Origin: Escherichia virus TH15 | DNA length: 64,000 bases | Sequence record: MT446392.1 | Direction: 5' to 3' (one strand) | Shown here: in pieces, positions 44 through 47,070 of the stretch | Layout of the letters: each line of letters starts with the position of its first letter | Position numbering within the stretch: position 1 is the first letter of the stretch | Notes under the pieces: generated by a model | Databases searched by the model: none | Told to the model about the DNA's origin: nothing | Seen by the model: the letters and a program-made list of their open reading frames with translations, nothing else | Program-made: the position numbers and the translations under genes

Positions 44-904
44 ATGAAAAATTATCAAGACTTGATTCAAACTGTATTTGACATTGGCTATCAGACTGAC
101 GACCGCACAGGGACTGGTACTATCGCGACATTTGGCACCAAAGTTGAGTGGGACATGTCTGAAGGCTTCCCTGCAACGACCGTTAAACGTTTGGCATACA
201 AATCTGTGGTTGGTGAGCTTCTGTGGTTCCTGGAAGGTTCTACGAACGTTGAACGTCTTCGTGAAATTACTCATGGCCCTGACTCTGATAAAAAGACTAT
301 CTGGGACCAGAACTTTGAAGCCCAAGGTCGTGCATTAGGTTATGTTGATGGCGAACTGGGTCCAGTATATGGTAAACAGTGGCGCGATTTTGGTGGGGTT
401 GACCAGCTGGTTGAGACCATCGAAAAGGTTAAGAAAGTTCCGACCGACCGTCGTCAGATTGTGTCCGCATGGAACCCGGCTGAACTGAAACAAATGGCTT
501 TGCCTCCTTGTCATCTGCTTTACCAGTTTAACGTACACGATGGTGAACTTGACCTGTTATGGTATCAACGTTCGGTTGATGTATTCCTGGGGCTTCCGTT
601 TGACATTGGTTCTTATGGTACGCTTTTACATATCGTTGCTAAAATGACTAGACTTAAGCCTGGTAAGTTGGTATTCATGGGTGGTAACACGCATATCTAT
701 CTTAACCATATCGAGCAATGCAAAGAAGTTCTTCGTCGTGAACCTAAGACTTTACCAACTCTGAAAATCAATTGGCCAGAGCAATTCCAGCAGTGGGACA
801 CGGAAATGCAGTTATATTGGGTGACTCGTCATATGTCTCCGGGTGATTTTGTTCTGGAAAACTATGAGCCACATCCGACAATCCCAGCACCGATGGCGGT
901 ATAA
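44..904 (+). CDS. td: thymidylate synthase, uninterrupted (no group I intron)
   Basis: 286-aa ORF, same length as T4 Td as recalled; ThyA-type sequence (PPCH..QFNV, DLLWYQRS); ATG at 44. Confidence 0.93.
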   Translation: MKNYQDLIQTVFDIGYQTDDRTGTGTIATFGTKVEWDMSEGFPATTVKRLAYKSVVGELLWFLEGSTNVERLREITHGPDSDKKTIWDQNFEAQGRALGYVDGELGPVYGKQWRDFGGVDQLVETIEKVKKVPTDRRQIVSAWNPAELKQMALPPCHLLYQFNVHDGELDLLWYQRSVDVFLGLPFDIGSYGTLLHIVAKMTRLKPGKLVFMGGNTHIYLNHIEQCKEVLRREPKTLPTLKINWPEQFQQWDTEMQLYWVTRHMSPGDFVLENYEPHPTIPAPMAV

Positions 905-13430: not shown

Positions 13431-13460
13431 TAATACATGACCAAACAACATGGATTAAAT

Positions 13461-13784
13461 ATGGAATTACCAATTAAAGCAGTAGGTGAATATATTATTT
13501 TGGTTTCTGAGCCAAAGCAAGCTGGCGATGAAGAAACTACGGCATCAGGTATCGTTATCGGAAAACTCCATCAGGGTGAAATCCCAGAGATGTGTGAAGT
13601 ATTTTCGATTGGTCAAGATGTTCCTGAAGGCTTCTGTGAAGTAGGCGATTTGACTCCTCTTCCGGTTGGCAAGATTGCAAACGTTCCACATCCTCTGGTT
13701 GCTCTGGGGCTTAAGCAGGCTAAAGAAGTTAAGCAGAAATTTGTGACCTGCCATTATAAAGCTGTTCCTTGTCTTTATAAGTAA
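13461..13784 (+). CDS. 31: head assembly co-chaperonin (GroES-like)
   Basis: 107 aa from ATG 13461 (track ATG 13437 lies at the predicted transcript start); [13 protein letters not shown]...[13 protein letters not shown] resembles T4 gp31 (111 aa). Confidence 0.8.
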
Positions 13785-13941
13785 AATTAGCGTTATAAAT
13801 AATAATATGGATTGGCTGCCGGACCAGTTAGTTAACCGGAGAATCCTAAACGGTGGACTACAACTGAGAGACTTGCCGAAAGGAAGTGAAATTCAGAAGA
13901 ACGTGTCCACCAAATATTCACCTCATATTGAGGCTTCTAAA

Positions 13942-26314: not shown

Positions 26315-27437
26315 TTTTAACCTTCGGTGGTTCTTCAACTTCGATAGGCTTACCATTGGTAAACATATAGAGGTTTGTAATTGATGTATTGTTACTCACT
26401 TCATGAATAACTTCGTCTACGTAAAAATCATATTTGAATTGGTTCTTAGGGTCAAAGAAATTTATCTTATCACCCGGGGTTAATTCAAAGTTCCCGTACG
26501 TTTTGCAATGTGCGTAACCGTCATACTGAGACATGGTTATTAATCGTTGTGCTTCCTCGAAACCATTTCGGTACGTGTAATCCGAATAGCCTCCGGAACG
26601 AGATACCAGAATACTGTTTTGACCTTCCCCAAAAGTTATTCTGGTTGCATTCTTGTCAAGGAATGAATGTGCATACACGGTTGCGTTTTCGTATGGTTTT
26701 CTTGTGTGTTGGTTTGCCTTTGTTAACCATTCAAAATCGAAGGCTAACGGAGCATCGAGGTTTTGCACGAATTGGCCAATCAATCGAGGTTCACCCACCA
26801 CAAAATTAATTGGCTCTTGGGCGGTTAACCATTCATAATCCTGGATACTTATGCCATCGATATCTTCCCATACAAAAACAAATTTATCGGTTTCTACGGC
26901 CAGGCCAACTTCCCTTATGAATTCCATATATTGGTTCATCGAATCACACCATGGAACATTAGGAGCATAAACGTTTATGCCGTTTATCGGAGGAGCAAGT
27001 AATGGTCGGTCCTGATAAATTACCCCGGTCATTTCGACTAATGTTTCTTGTACACTCGGGTAAAACATACGACTAAATTTCAGGTCTTCAATTTCGTGAA
27101 TCGGCGCCAGTTGAATTGTAATTATGTTATCACCCTTTGAATCCACAGAAACCGCAAAGTGCTTGCTTCCGTATATCCTGGATTGGGTTCGGTCAGAGTT
27201 GGCATTCTTAACAGAAATCTGAATAATTTGTTCACCATTCATTTTTGTATGTAAATTCTTTGTGTCGTAGAATTGCAACAGCCCTTCGTTTCTTCCATAA
27301 AGGGAATCACGCATGGTTAACGTTGTAAATGTTGCAGCCAGTTCTACAAAACGGTGTTCAAGCCAGGCATCATAATCTTCATAAAGGCGTATGCTGATAT
27401 TAGGAAAGCCTTCGCGCTGCATAGATTTAGCTGTCAT
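26268..27437 (-). CDS. 27: baseplate hub subunit
   Basis: 389-aa ORF (T4 gp27 391 aa); synteny. Confidence 0.88.
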
Positions 27438-28186
27438 TTCTTCAAGTCCTTCTCAACTAACGATAAAGCGATACCTCGCTCGATAGGAATCATGTGCATG
27501 ATGCTATCCAGTGAATATTGATTCTTTACCAGCAAGTGGTTAATTTGATAAAATACAAAGACTTCATCCGGGTTAAGGATAAGCTTAAAGACATCAATCA
27601 AGTCTGTATATTCGGTTTTGTGCTTTTCGCAACAACCATATGTAAATGGAAGATAAATCGAGTGCATTTTCTTAAGGAGCTCTTCGAGACTCTCTATATC
27701 AATTGCATCGATAACTTGCATCTTCGTTTCTTCAGGAAGGTCTTCCCAATTGTACTTTTGTTCTGAGTCTTCGACAGTCTGGATGGTGTTTAGAACAAGC
27801 TCCGACTTATCTTTATATTCCACTTCAGGGAACTTAAATTGTATTTTTATCCCTGCGGTTTCCATCGTTGGATTTATCAATGGACCTTGACTCATGTTAA
27901 ACAAAGTCTGCTTTGTCTTTTTACATTTTTGACATTCGAACGCTACCGGGACTTTTGTCTTGCCGATAGAGGAAGTGAATACCTTCAGGAATATGTAAGG
28001 TCTCCATGCTTTCGGATACTCTCCAAAATAATCTTCTAACAGTTCGTCTAATAATTGTTTTTGTTCTTCGACGGGTTTGTTGTTCATGTCGTTTCGCACA
28101 AGCAGTAAATCACGGTAATCAGCGACTGTAAACGGTTTGAAACGATGAACTCCGTCTGGCATTTCACATCTTACGATATTGGCCAT
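27434..28186 (-). CDS. 51: baseplate hub assembly protein
   Basis: 250-aa ORF (T4 gp51 249 aa); Cys-rich; synteny. Confidence 0.85.
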
Positions 28187-28210
28187 AGAATCCCCTTTTA
28201 TCTTTATTGA

Positions 28211-28222
28211 TATTTATAAATA
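28211..28222. promoter_or_regulatory. palindromic late-promoter element TATTTATAAATA (TATAAATA on both strands)
   Basis: Perfect 12-bp palindrome between divergent genes 51 and 26. Confidence 0.45.
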
Positions 28223-28239
28223 CAGTAAAGGAGCAAATT

Positions 28240-28863
28240 ATGACTTATGAATTTATTGTCCAAATTAAAAATAAAACTATAAATTGTAGGGCTTTTACCT
28301 TGCGCGAATATAAAGATTTGCTTCAGGCAAAATTAGAAAAGCGTATGGAACCTGCAATAATTGAACTGCTTAATAAATGCACTGATGCTAAAGGGTTAAA
28401 CAAACAGGAAGCCGAGCTGCTTCTTATTAATCTCTGGGCAAATAGTCTCGGAGCTGTCAACGTCGAGCATACATGGGTATGTGAGTGTGGAAAGGAACAA
28501 GATATTCCGGTAACGATTAGCCGTGCGAGCATCGTGGACGAGTCTGAAGTTATTCGTGATTTTGGGTCGTTTAAAATTAAATTCCGTTATCCTGGACTGT
28601 TTGAAGACGGTGATAAAGGAAAAATGATTGCTTGTTGCATTGAATATATTATCACGGAAGGTGGCGAGCGCATCGTGGTTGATGACTTAAATGAAGCCGA
28701 AATCGAGGACCTGTACAACGCAATTACCCTCGATGATATCAATGCACTAACGGAAGAACTTCTCAAGCCACAGGTCCAAATGGCTATTCCTATCTCTTGT
28801 GAGTGTGGAGCGCATTCTGTCCATGTAATTAAGGGGCTTAAAGAATTCTTTAAGTTTATGTAA
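28240..28863 (+). CDS. 26: baseplate hub subunit
   Basis: 207 aa from ATG 28240 with AAGGAG RBS (T4 gp26 208 aa). Confidence 0.82.
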   Translation: MTYEFIVQIKNKTINCRAFTLREYKDLLQAKLEKRMEPAIIELLNKCTDAKGLNKQEAELLLINLWANSLGAVNVEHTWVCECGKEQDIPVTISRASIVDESEVIRDFGSFKIKFRYPGLFEDGDKGKMIACCIEYIITEGGERIVVDDLNEAEIEDLYNAITLDDINALTEELLKPQVQMAIPISCECGAHSVHVIKGLKEFFKFM

Positions 28864-29253
28864 ATGAATATAAACAAAATGTATAGCGATGTGTCTCCTG
28901 ACTTGTCAATGAGTTGGGATAAAGACGTTGCTAAAGTAACTGGTGCAAGGTCTGTTAAGAACAGTCTTCTGGGAATAATCACCACAAGAAAAGGGTCAAG
29001 GCCTTTTATGCCTGAATTTGGATGTGATATAAGTAATCAGCTTTTTGAGAATATCACTCCATTAATCACAGATACCATTAAACGCAACATCGTCTCCGCT
29101 GTGCGGAACTTCGAACCAAGGATAAGCAATTTGCAGGTTGCAGTTGTCCCTATGTATGATGATAACTCCATCATCGTAACGGTTCAGTTCAGCATTGTTG
29201 ATGACCCTGACACCCTCGAACAAATCAGGATTCAGTTAAGTCAAAACGGTTAA
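28864..29253 (+). CDS. 25: baseplate wedge subunit
   Basis: 129-aa ORF (T4 gp25 132 aa); synteny. Confidence 0.88.
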   Translation: MNINKMYSDVSPDLSMSWDKDVAKVTGARSVKNSLLGIITTRKGSRPFMPEFGCDISNQLFENITPLITDTIKRNIVSAVRNFEPRISNLQVAVVPMYDDNSIIVTVQFSIVDDPDTLEQIRIQLSQNG

Positions 29254-29278
29254 TGCTTTAATTTTATGGCTGTATAAT
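29252..29278 (+). promoter_or_regulatory. MotA-type middle promoter for uvsY
   Basis: aaTGCTTTA 29252-29260, 12-nt spacer, TATAAT 29273-29278, then GGTTCTAGACCC cassette. Confidence 0.55.
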
Positions 29279-29306
29279 GGTTCTAGACCCTTACATTGGA
29301 TACATT

Positions 29307-29741
29307 ATGAAAACAGAGATTGAATATAAGTTGGAAGTATTTCAGGATGAGTTGGATGCAGATTTAAAAATTGATGGTACACAAATTCAATATGAAACAC
29401 AAAACAACGTTTTGTTGCATAGCAAATGGTTGAGATTGTATACCAACTGCAAGAAAGAAATAATGCGTCTTGAGATTCAGAAGAAAACTGCACTGAAAAA
29501 ACGACTAGACCATTATACAGGAAGGGGTGACCCAGGGGAAGAAGTATGCATGGATGTGTACGAGAAGTCAGAATTGAAAACAGTCATGGCCGCAGATTCA
29601 AGCGTGCTTAAGATTGATACTTCAATTCAATATTGGGCACTGCTCCAGGACTTCTGTAGCGCTGCATTAGATGGTGTTAAGTCGCGAAGTTTCGCACTTA
29701 AACATATGTTAGAAATAAGACAATTCGAGGCAGGTAAATGA
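29307..29741 (+). CDS. uvsY: recombination mediator UvsY
   Basis: 144 aa from ATG 29307 (track ATG 29277 lies inside the -10 box); resembles T4 UvsY (137 aa) as recalled. Confidence 0.85.
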   Translation: MKTEIEYKLEVFQDELDADLKIDGTQIQYETQNNVLLHSKWLRLYTNCKKEIMRLEIQKKTALKKRLDHYTGRGDPGEEVCMDVYEKSELKTVMAADSSVLKIDTSIQYWALLQDFCSAALDGVKSRSFALKHMLEIRQFEAGK

Positions 29742-29842
29742 TTGGTTGTCGTAAAGCAAATATTAGAAAACCATTAAAACCTTCTGAAGAGAAGATGCGT
29801 AAATTTCAACAGTTTATTAATGCCGCATTAAAGAAGCACTAA
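29738..29842 (+). CDS. small basic ORF, 34 aa (uvsY.-1 position)
   Basis: ATG overlapping uvsY stop; below track cutoff. Confidence 0.3.
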   Translation: MIGCRKANIRKPLKPSEEKMRKFQQFINAALKKH

Positions 29843-29874
29843 ATAGATATGTAAGTTTAACTGAGGAGACAATC

Positions 29875-30042
29875 ATGTCAGATAAGATTTGTGTTGTCTG
29901 TAAAACTCCAATCGATTCTGCATTGGTTGTGGATACAGACCAAGGTCCGGTGCATCCGGGCGCCTGTTATAATTATGTTCAGAGTTTGCCAGTTACGGAA
30001 AATACAGAAGAGCAACTGAACGAGACCCAACTTTTAATTTAG
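29875..30042 (+). CDS. small Cys-containing ORF, 55 aa (uvsY.-2 position)
   Basis: GAGGAG RBS; CVVC...PGAC motif suggests a mini zinc-binding fold. Confidence 0.4.
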   Translation: MSDKICVVCKTPIDSALVVDTDQGPVHPGACYNYVQSLPVTENTEEQLNETQLLI

Positions 30043-36537: not shown

Positions 36538-36634
36538 GGTTCTAGACCCTTTGAGACTATTAATTCCTTTCAGAGAAAGAAAGTATAGTGGGTCTAATTT
36601 ATAATGATATTTATAACATCAAAAGTGAGAGAAT

Positions 36635-46901: not shown

Positions 46902-47019
46902 TAAGGAATCCTCTTTATAGACACAGGTCGCGCGTACGCGTCCCTGATGCATGTATTTATACTAGGTAATATGATTCATCATCTCAAGATAATGGCTTCC
47001 CAGAATCAACCACAGGAGC

Positions 47020-47070
47020 CCGTAGAACCGATTATGCTTTTATTTATAACACTGTATAATGGTTCTACGG
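47020..47070 (+). promoter_or_regulatory. promoter-like cassette flanked by 10-bp perfect inverted repeat
   Basis: CCGTAGAACC (47020-47029) ... atGCTTTt ... TATAAT (47055-47060) ... GGTTCTACGG (47061-47070); TATAAATA on - strand at 47041-47048. Confidence 0.4.

What the first reader, a model, noticed from the sequence alone, without database searches (positions are those of the whole stretch)
28211..28222. Perfectly palindromic late-promoter box between divergent genes 51 and 26
TATTTATAAATA reads as the late consensus TATAAATA on both strands. It lies 25 nt from the gene 51 start and 18 nt from the gene 26 start. One 12-bp element could therefore serve as a bidirectional late promoter for the two diverging baseplate-hub genes.
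Basis: partly seen in the sequence, partly recalled or inferred. Interest (0 to 1): 0.3.

Follow-up and report, generated by a model that had tools for sequence, protein, structure and literature searches.

The report
Known back-to-back T4 late promoters
The 12-bp palindrome between baseplate genes 51 and 26 is real and is the counterpart, in a VR7-like T4-type phage, of the overlapping divergent late promoters already annotated in phage T4, so it is a correct but ordinary finding.

Summary
TATTTATAAATA lies at 28211-28222 and is a perfect palindrome. It reads TATAAATA on both strands and occurs once in the window, against 0.01 expected by chance. It lies 24 nt from the gene 51 ATG (28186, minus strand) and 17 nt from the gene 26 ATG (28240, plus strand).

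The window comes from a Gaprivervirus. It is identical to phage vB_EcoM_VR7 over 28000-28450.

The same 12-mer sits in the 26/51 spacer of T4, RB69, JS10 and eight further genera: 28 of 35 distinct spacers. The bases next to it are nearly random. The sixth base after each box is A in 93% and 86% of spacers, as expected for a T4 late start site.

T4 GenBank record M77695 (Gruidl et al. 1991) already marks overlapping TATA boxes for genes 51 and 26 on this sequence. The records of phages Pm5461 and Lutter annotate two opposite-strand promoters there, and Nolan et al. 2006 predicted the pair in RB69.

Best explanation: two gp55-dependent late promoters set back to back, sharing the central TATA. 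Predicted starts are 28228 (+) and 28205 (-). Their open complexes overlap, so the two are probably occupied one at a time.

Novelty: already known. Interest: low. No RNA data exist for this phage.

The parts
28211..28222 (.). 12-bp perfect palindrome TATTTATAAATA, made of two late-promoter boxes sharing the central TATA (28215-28218)
   Evidence: unique in the window, 0.01 expected; conserved in 28 of 35 distinct 26/51 spacers
28215..28222 (+). Late-promoter box TATAAATA for gene 26 (and 25), positions -13 to -6 of the predicted promoter P26
   Evidence: The orthologous T4 box is annotated TATA_box for gene 26 in M77695 at 772..779. The position rule comes from PMC1524935.
28211..28218 (-). 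Late-promoter box TATAAATA for gene 51 (and 27, 28, 29, 48, 54), positions -13 to -6 of the predicted promoter P51
   Evidence: T4 M77695 annotates a TATA_box for gene 51 at 768..774. The downstream co-directional genes 27-54 are in the VR7 annotation.
28228..28228 (+). Predicted transcription start of P26 (an A, sixth base after the box). It gives a 12-nt leader, AAGGAGCAAAUU, before the AUG.
   Evidence: Inference from the -13..-6 rule. This position is A in 93% (gene 51 side) and 86% (gene 26 side) of 28 spacers. Not mapped experimentally.
28205..28205 (-). Predicted transcription start of P51 (an A on the minus strand), giving a 19-nt leader
   Evidence: Same inference as for P26. Not mapped experimentally.
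28229..28233 (+). Shine-Dalgarno AGGAG of gene 26
   Evidence: A purine-rich block is conserved at this distance in related spacers.
28192..28197 (-). Shine-Dalgarno AAGGGG of gene 51
   Evidence: plus strand reads cccctt; related spacers
27434..28186 (-). Gene 51, baseplate hub assembly catalyst (250 aa), first gene of the leftward hub operon
28240..28863 (+). Gene 26, baseplate hub subunit (207 aa), first gene of the rightward 26-25 unit

Best explanation
The palindrome is two T4-type late promoters placed back to back on opposite strands, sharing the self-complementary TATA at 28215-28218.

Late in infection, host RNA polymerase carries the phage sigma-like factor gp55. It is helped by gp33 and by the sliding clamp gp45. 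Gp55 reads TATAAATA on the non-template strand. On the plus strand this box starts the gene 26-25 transcript near 28228. On the minus strand it starts the gene 51-27-28-29-48-54 transcript near 28205.

The two starts are 23 bp apart. A late open complex melts -12 to +2, so the two melted regions (28216-28229 and 28204-28217) overlap. Each polymerase would also sit on the other's upstream DNA. The two promoters are therefore probably occupied one at a time.

What is shown: the sequence, its conservation, and its orthology to the annotated T4 boxes. What is inferred: the start positions, activity in this phage, and mutual exclusion.
For: Both strands match the consensus exactly.

Exact boxes are four-fold enriched in the window. 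Fifteen of the 19 lie outside long ORFs, mostly 17-35 nt upstream of the ATG of a long same-strand ORF. The two boxes here have gaps of 17 and 24 nt.

The identical 12-mer is in the T4 26/51 spacer. T4 record M77695 marks it as overlapping TATA boxes for genes 51 and 26. The paper behind that record, Gruidl et al. 1991, Virology 184:359, is cited in PMC2988022.

Opposite-strand overlapping promoters are annotated at the same site in Proteus phage Pm5461 and in Tequatrovirus Lutter. They were predicted for RB69 as Pl:118620(+) and Pl:118672(-) in the supplement of PMC1524935.

Of 35 distinct spacers, 28 keep all 12 bases. Positions 1-4 on either side carry only 0.2-0.4 bit of information. The sixth base after each box is A in 93% and 86% of spacers.

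In two spacers that lack the palindrome (L050, L059), one exact box per strand is still kept, in a crossed arrangement. So it is the boxes that are conserved, not the dyad as such.

The VR7 genome encodes gp55.

The mechanism comes from two papers: the box lies at -13..-6 (PMC1524935); the bubble spans -12..+2, gp55 reads non-template A-12, A-9 and A-8, and gp45 sits at the upstream end of the complex, next to gp33 on the upstream double-stranded DNA (PMC7892883).
Against: No transcript 5' ends are available for this phage or its close relatives, and none could be retrieved for T4 with these tools. The TSS tables of the T4 dRNA-seq preprint are not held as text.

RB49/JSE-type phages have a 1-nt insertion (TATTTTATAAATA) that leaves only the gene 51 box intact. 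A consensus gene 26 box is therefore not indispensable everywhere.

T4 annotates further variant boxes for gene 26. The RB49 record places a sigma-70-type promoter for gene 26 inside gene 51. Gene 26 may thus have additional inputs.

Mutual exclusion is deduced from geometry only.
Confidence: 0.9

Rival explanations
1. Only one of the two boxes is a working promoter. The other strand's match is carried along or is weak, and that gene is transcribed from another start, for example a variant box or a sigma-70-type promoter inside the opposite gene.
For: RB49/JSE-type phages keep only the gene 51 box. The RB49 record annotates a -35/-10 pair inside gene 51 pointing at gene 26. A sigma-70-like match, TTCACA-17-TAGAAT, lies at 28163-28191 (+) in the window. 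T4 lists extra variant boxes for gene 26.
Against: The four outer bases on each side are needed by only one of the two boxes, yet both sets are invariant in 28 of 35 distinct spacers across 11 genera. An A lies at the expected +1 on both sides. The sigma-70-like match is no more than chance: 2 found against 2.5 expected. It lies in conserved gene 51 coding sequence. The T4 authors assigned a box to each gene.
Confidence: 0.06
2. The palindrome is an operator for a dimeric DNA-binding protein (for example an A/T-binding protein such as DsbA) that regulates the hub genes. Its resemblance to late boxes would then be secondary.
For: It has perfect dyad symmetry. A review notes that T4 DsbA has low-affinity A/T-rich sites overlapping two late promoters (PMC2988020).
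Against: Two consensus boxes account for every one of the 12 bases. No symmetry extends beyond them, and the flanks are unconstrained. Spacers that lose the dyad still keep one exact box per strand (L050, L059). The 12-mer occurs once in the window. It also occurs once in 38.8 kb of VR7, at this same spacer, so there is no regulon of such sites.
Confidence: 0.03
3. It is a chance A/T-rich palindrome in an A/T-rich spacer.
For: The window is 41% G+C. Short A/T palindromes are common in such DNA.
Against: Chance predicts 0.01 occurrences per window. The element sits at the same place in phages whose gp51 proteins are only 40-69% identical, while the surrounding spacer has diverged.
Confidence: 0.01

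Closest known systems
Phage T4 overlapping late promoters of genes 26 and 51. Sources: GenBank M77695 and Gruidl et al. 1991, Virology 184:359. From memory only, not retrievable here: Scarlato et al. 1989, Virology 171:475, 'overlapping promoters direct divergent transcription of the base plate gene cluster'.
   Same: The 12-mer TATTTATAAATA is identical. Genes 51 and 26 flank it in the same divergent arrangement. A Shine-Dalgarno sequence follows on each side. Leaders are short: predicted T4 starts are at 116467 (+) and 116444 (-).
   Different: The spacer is 53 nt here and 50 nt in T4. Spacing to the ATGs is 24/17 nt here and 17/21 nt in T4. T4 has a second variant box (GATAAATA) just downstream for gene 26, which is absent here. 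The flanking spacer sequence has diverged.
Predicted or annotated opposite-strand late promoter pairs at the 26/51 spacer of RB69 (Nolan et al. 2006, PMC1524935), Proteus phage Pm5461 (KP890823) and Tequatrovirus Lutter (MT682714)
   Same: Same palindrome, same geometry, same genes.
   Different: All of these are computational annotations, as the present one would be.
Bacterial bidirectional promoters built on the near-symmetry of the sigma-70 -10 element (recalled from Warman et al. 2021, Nat Microbiol; not checked here)
   Same: Two promoters on opposite strands share part of a symmetric A/T-rich -10-type element and fire divergently from closely spaced starts.
   Different: Here the element is read by the phage factor gp55. 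There is no -35 element. Activation comes from a sliding clamp with a defined polarity. The shared core is 4 bp of an 8-bp box, which gives a predicted 23-bp start spacing.
Variant arrangements at the same locus in other T4-type phages
   Same: One late-type box per strand lies between divergent genes 26 and 51.
   Different: Aeromonas phiAS4-type phages have TATTTAAATA, a 10-bp palindrome of two TTTAAATA boxes sharing 6 bp. L050 and L059 have crossed, face-to-face boxes. RB49/JSE has a 1-nt insertion. Pseudotevenvirus and Slopekvirus have 54-51-26 in tandem and no divergent spacer.

Membership tests
T4-type (gp55-dependent) late promoter | 8-bp box matching TATAAATA | tested here: met
   Exact match on both strands at 28215-28222 (+) and 28218-28211 (-)
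T4-type (gp55-dependent) late promoter | Box lies at -13 to -6 relative to a mapped late transcript start | not testable with these tools
   No RNA data for this phage. Indirect support only: A at the sixth base after the box on both sides here, and in 93% and 86% of 28 related spacers.
T4-type (gp55-dependent) late promoter | No conserved -35 element or other upstream sequence | tested here: met
   Positions flanking the 12-mer carry 0.2-0.4 bit. What conservation lies farther out is the mirrored start region and Shine-Dalgarno of the opposite gene.
T4-type (gp55-dependent) late promoter | Lies just upstream of a late (virion structure or assembly) gene on the same strand | tested here: met
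   Gene 26 lies 17 nt downstream and gene 51 lies 24 nt downstream. Both are baseplate hub genes. The spacing is within the range of most other intergenic boxes in the window.
T4-type (gp55-dependent) late promoter | The phage encodes the late transcription factor gp55 (with gp33 and gp45) | tested here: inconclusive
   Gene 55 is annotated in VR7, the closest sequenced relative found. It lies outside this window. Genes 33 and 45 were not looked up.
T4 P26/P51 overlapping divergent promoter pair | Same sequence at the orthologous position between divergent genes 26 and 51 | tested here: met
   Identical 12-mer in the T4 spacer, annotated there as TATA boxes for genes 51 and 26
T4 P26/P51 overlapping divergent promoter pair | Late transcripts leave the element in both directions | not testable with these tools
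   Needs late-infection RNA 5' end mapping. The T4 dRNA-seq tables (GSE255091) are not held as text.
Palindromic operator for a dimeric regulator | Dyad symmetry is conserved as such, independently of promoter boxes | tested here: not met
   Spacers without the dyad keep one exact box per strand (L050, L059). Symmetry does not extend beyond the boxes.

The most novel reading that the evidence does not exclude
The 4-bp overlap may be a selected switch rather than mere compaction. The two open complexes cannot coexist, and gp45 activates only with one polarity. Each clamp arriving at the palindrome would then fire just one of the two hub operons. Clamp orientation, and so the strand on which it was loaded behind a replication fork, would set the 26-25 versus 51-27-28-29-48-54 output ratio.

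Two observations fit weakly. Spacers up to 73 nt long still keep the overlap. No spacer shows the simple TATA duplication that would separate the boxes (0 such pairs in all loci fetched).

A related untested idea: the palindrome marks the symmetry axis of the head-to-head paralogs gp26 and gp51, which are both PF12322.
Probability: 0.2. Interest if true: 0.35.

Novelty: already known. Interest (0 to 1): 0.1.

Why it matters
The finding matters little beyond annotation. It allows two late promoters, absent from the VR7 GenBank record, to be placed on this genome with predicted starts. It also shows that the T4 arrangement is conserved across at least 11 genera.

The only open biological question is whether the obligatory overlap has a regulatory consequence, namely alternating firing that depends on clamp polarity. 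That is a modest question in a well-studied system.

Tried and rejected
Literature. The held library has no paper that reports mapped 5' ends for T4 genes 26 or 51. Miller et al. 2003 (PMC150520) is not held. The title I recall for Scarlato et al. 1989 is not in any held reference list. There is no held paper on VR7 late promoters.

T4 dRNA-seq. The preprint 10.1101/2024.04.04.588121 reports 150 T4 transcription start sites, but its tables are not held as text.

Structure. No extended inverted repeat or cruciform-capable structure surrounds the 12-mer. Only weak A/T-rich arms were found.

Sigma-70 promoters. The scan of 27800-28600 gave 2 sites against 2.5 expected, so it adds nothing.

Variant boxes. 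One-mismatch boxes near the site (28266, 28278 and 28309 on the plus strand; 28212 on the minus strand) lie in A/T-rich sequence and were not pursued.

Identity of the window. I first took the window to be VR7 itself. It is identical over 28000-28450 but only about 97% identical over 26500-29950, with a 6-nt indel.

Full report
**Observation**

The sequence at 28211-28222 is tatttataaata. It is its own reverse complement. It occurs once in the window, against 0.01 expected from dinucleotide-preserving shuffles. It contains TATAAATA at 28215-28222 on the plus strand and at 28218-28211 on the minus strand. The window holds 19 exact boxes against 4.6 expected, and none of 100 shuffles reached 19.

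The flanking ORFs are a 250-aa protein on the minus strand (27434-28186, ATG at 28186) and a 207-aa protein on the plus strand (ATG at 28240, ending at 28863). The intervening bases number 24 and 17.

**Source and gene identity**

The stretch 28000-28450 is 100% identical to Escherichia phage vB_EcoM_VR7 (Gaprivervirus, Tevenvirinae), in reverse orientation. Over 26500-29950 the window differs from VR7 at about 3% of positions and by a 6-nt indel. It is therefore a close relative rather than the same isolate.

VR7 annotates the two genes as 51 (baseplate hub assembly protein) and 26 (baseplate hub subunit). Gene 27 follows 51, and genes 25 and uvsY follow 26. PHROG and Pfam searches agree. Gp26 is 50% identical to T4 gp26. 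The VR7 record carries no promoter features at this site.

**Comparison with T4 and other phages**

The T4 26/51 spacer reads cat-agatgctccttttattc-TATTTATAAATA-tgataaataaaggagctaaat-atg. So it carries the same 12-mer.

The exact palindrome is present in these representatives:
- T4 (Tequatrovirus)
- JS10 (Dhakavirus)
- CIP9 (Kanagawavirus)
- RB69 (Mosigvirus)
- Raoultella phage M12a (Jiaodavirus)
- KM16 (Moonvirus)
- Marfa and MY02 (Marfavirus)
- Acinetobacter phage PhT2 (Hadassahvirus)
- Proteus phage Pm5461 (Bragavirus)
- Serratia phage PS2 (Muldoonvirus)

A scan of IMG/VR with a gp51 alignment added 53 loci.

Pooling everything gives 66 loci with divergent 26/51 and 35 distinct spacers of 45-73 nt. 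Of these, 28 carry the exact 12-mer. When those 28 are aligned on the palindrome, the four positions on either side carry only 0.2-0.4 bit. The sixth base after each box is A in 93% of spacers on the gene 51 side and 86% on the gene 26 side. A purine-rich Shine-Dalgarno block follows. This is the signature of a T4 late promoter read in both directions.

**The exceptions are informative**

- Aeromonas phiAS4-type phages have TATTTAAATA. This is a 10-bp palindrome of two one-mismatch boxes sharing 6 bp.
- Two IMG/VR spacers (L050, L059) have lost the palindrome but keep one exact box per strand in a crossed arrangement.
- RB49/JSE-type phages have a 1-nt insertion that leaves only the gene 51 box exact. 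The RB49 record instead annotates a sigma-70-type promoter for gene 26 inside gene 51.
- Pseudotevenvirus and Slopekvirus have 54-51-26 in tandem and no divergent spacer.

So what is conserved is a late box for each gene, not dyad symmetry as such. This argues against a palindromic operator.

**What is already known**

T4 GenBank record M77695 covers genes 51, 26, 25 and uvsY. It annotates a TATA_box at 768..774 assigned to gene 51 and a TATA_box at 772..779 assigned to gene 26, on ctatttataaatat. The matching paper is Gruidl et al. 1991, Virology 184:359-369, cited in PMC2988022.

Proteus phage Pm5461 (KP890823) annotates promoters on both strands that overlap by 4 bp at this site. So does Tequatrovirus Lutter. 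The supplement of Nolan et al. 2006 (PMC1524935) lists RB69 late promoters Pl:118620 (+) and Pl:118672 (-), which span the RB69 spacer.

From memory, and not verifiable with the held library, Scarlato et al. 1989 (Virology 171:475) described overlapping promoters that direct divergent transcription of the T4 baseplate gene cluster.

**Mechanism**

T4 late promoters are an 8-bp TATAAATA box at -13 to -6, with no -35 element. They are read by gp55 (PMC1524935; PMC2988020). Cryo-EM shows three things: DNA is melted from -12 to +2; gp55 reads non-template A-12, A-9 and A-8; and gp45 sits at the upstream end of the complex, next to gp33 on the upstream double-stranded DNA, loaded with a defined polarity (PMC7892883).

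Applied here, P26 has +1 at 28228 and a bubble at 28216-28229. P51 has +1 at 28205 and a bubble at 28204-28217. The leaders would be 12 nt (AAGGAGCAAAUU-AUG) and 19 nt.

The bubbles overlap, and each polymerase would lie over the other's upstream DNA. I therefore infer that the two promoters are occupied one at a time. The two RNAs do not overlap. VR7 encodes gp55.

Other exact boxes in the window behave alike. Fifteen of 19 lie outside long ORFs, mostly 17-35 nt upstream of a long same-strand ORF. One of them (54091-54084) has almost the same downstream sequence as P26.

**Rivals**

A single functional box is unlikely, because the outer four bases of each side serve only one box and both sets are invariant. 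An operator is unlikely for the reasons given above, and because symmetry does not extend beyond the boxes. Chance is excluded.

**Limits**

There are no RNA data for this phage. The TSS tables of the T4 dRNA-seq preprint are not available as text.

**Verdict**

The feature is already known from T4 and is annotated in several relatives. Interest is low.

The least ordinary reading not excluded is that the obligatory overlap, combined with clamp polarity, acts as a switch between the two hub operons. Spacers up to 73 nt long still keep the overlap, and no spacer separates the boxes by a TATA duplication. Shared ancestry of these phages makes that weak evidence.

Noticed in passing
window 27434-28186 (-) and 28240-28863 (+): Gp51 and gp26 are paralogs arranged head to head. 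Both match Pfam PF12322 (T4_baseplate) end to end and PHROG 150. They are 24% identical over about 180 aa (E = 3e-8). The promoter palindrome lies on the symmetry axis between them. In Pseudotevenvirus and Slopekvirus the two genes are tandem (51 then 26).
   Followed up: partly
window 28831-28866: The gene 26/25 junction has an SD-like AAGGGG (28831-28836), then a hairpin CTTAAAG-AATT-CTTTAAG (28837-28854), then the gene 25 ATG at 28864. This is the split ribosome-binding site described for T-even phages (summarised in PMC3014915). The T4 stem (CTCAAAG/CTTTGAG) differs by a compensatory pair. VR7 has an extra TTTAAG just after the hairpin.
   Followed up: partly
window 13794-13807 (+): An exact late box lies between gene 31 (13437-13784) and rIII. 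Its predicted start coincides with the A of an ATG at 13807. That ATG opens a 129-aa ORF whose last 84 aa are rIII. Either this is a long leader for rIII or a leaderless N-terminally extended form.
   Followed up: partly
window 36608-36615 (-): An exact late box with no ORF start within 120 nt downstream. Going by the VR7 map, it would drive transcription antisense to the 24.2/24.3-like genes and towards the collagen-repeat ORF196w-like gene. That gene has its own box at 35992-35985.
   Followed up: no
window 28163-28191 (+): A sigma-70-like match, TTCACA-17-TAGAAT (10 of 12), lies inside the 5' end of gene 51 and points towards gene 26. The number of such matches is no more than chance. However, the RB49 record AJ489481 annotates a -35/-10 pair for gene 26 inside gene 51.
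   Followed up: partly
L013, L063, L064 (Aeromonas phiAS4-type); L050 and L059 (IMG/VR); L011, L060-L062 (RB49/JSE-type): 26/51 spacers: Variant solutions occur at the same locus. One is a 10-bp palindrome, TATTTAAATA, of two TTTAAATA boxes sharing 6 bp. Another is a crossed, face-to-face pair of exact boxes whose predicted transcripts would overlap by a few bases. A third is a 1-nt insertion that destroys only the gene 26 box.
   Followed up: partly
window 46954-46961 and 47041-47048 (-): Two exact late boxes lie 87 nt apart on the same strand, upstream of the same 180-aa ORF. They may be tandem late promoters.
   Followed up: no
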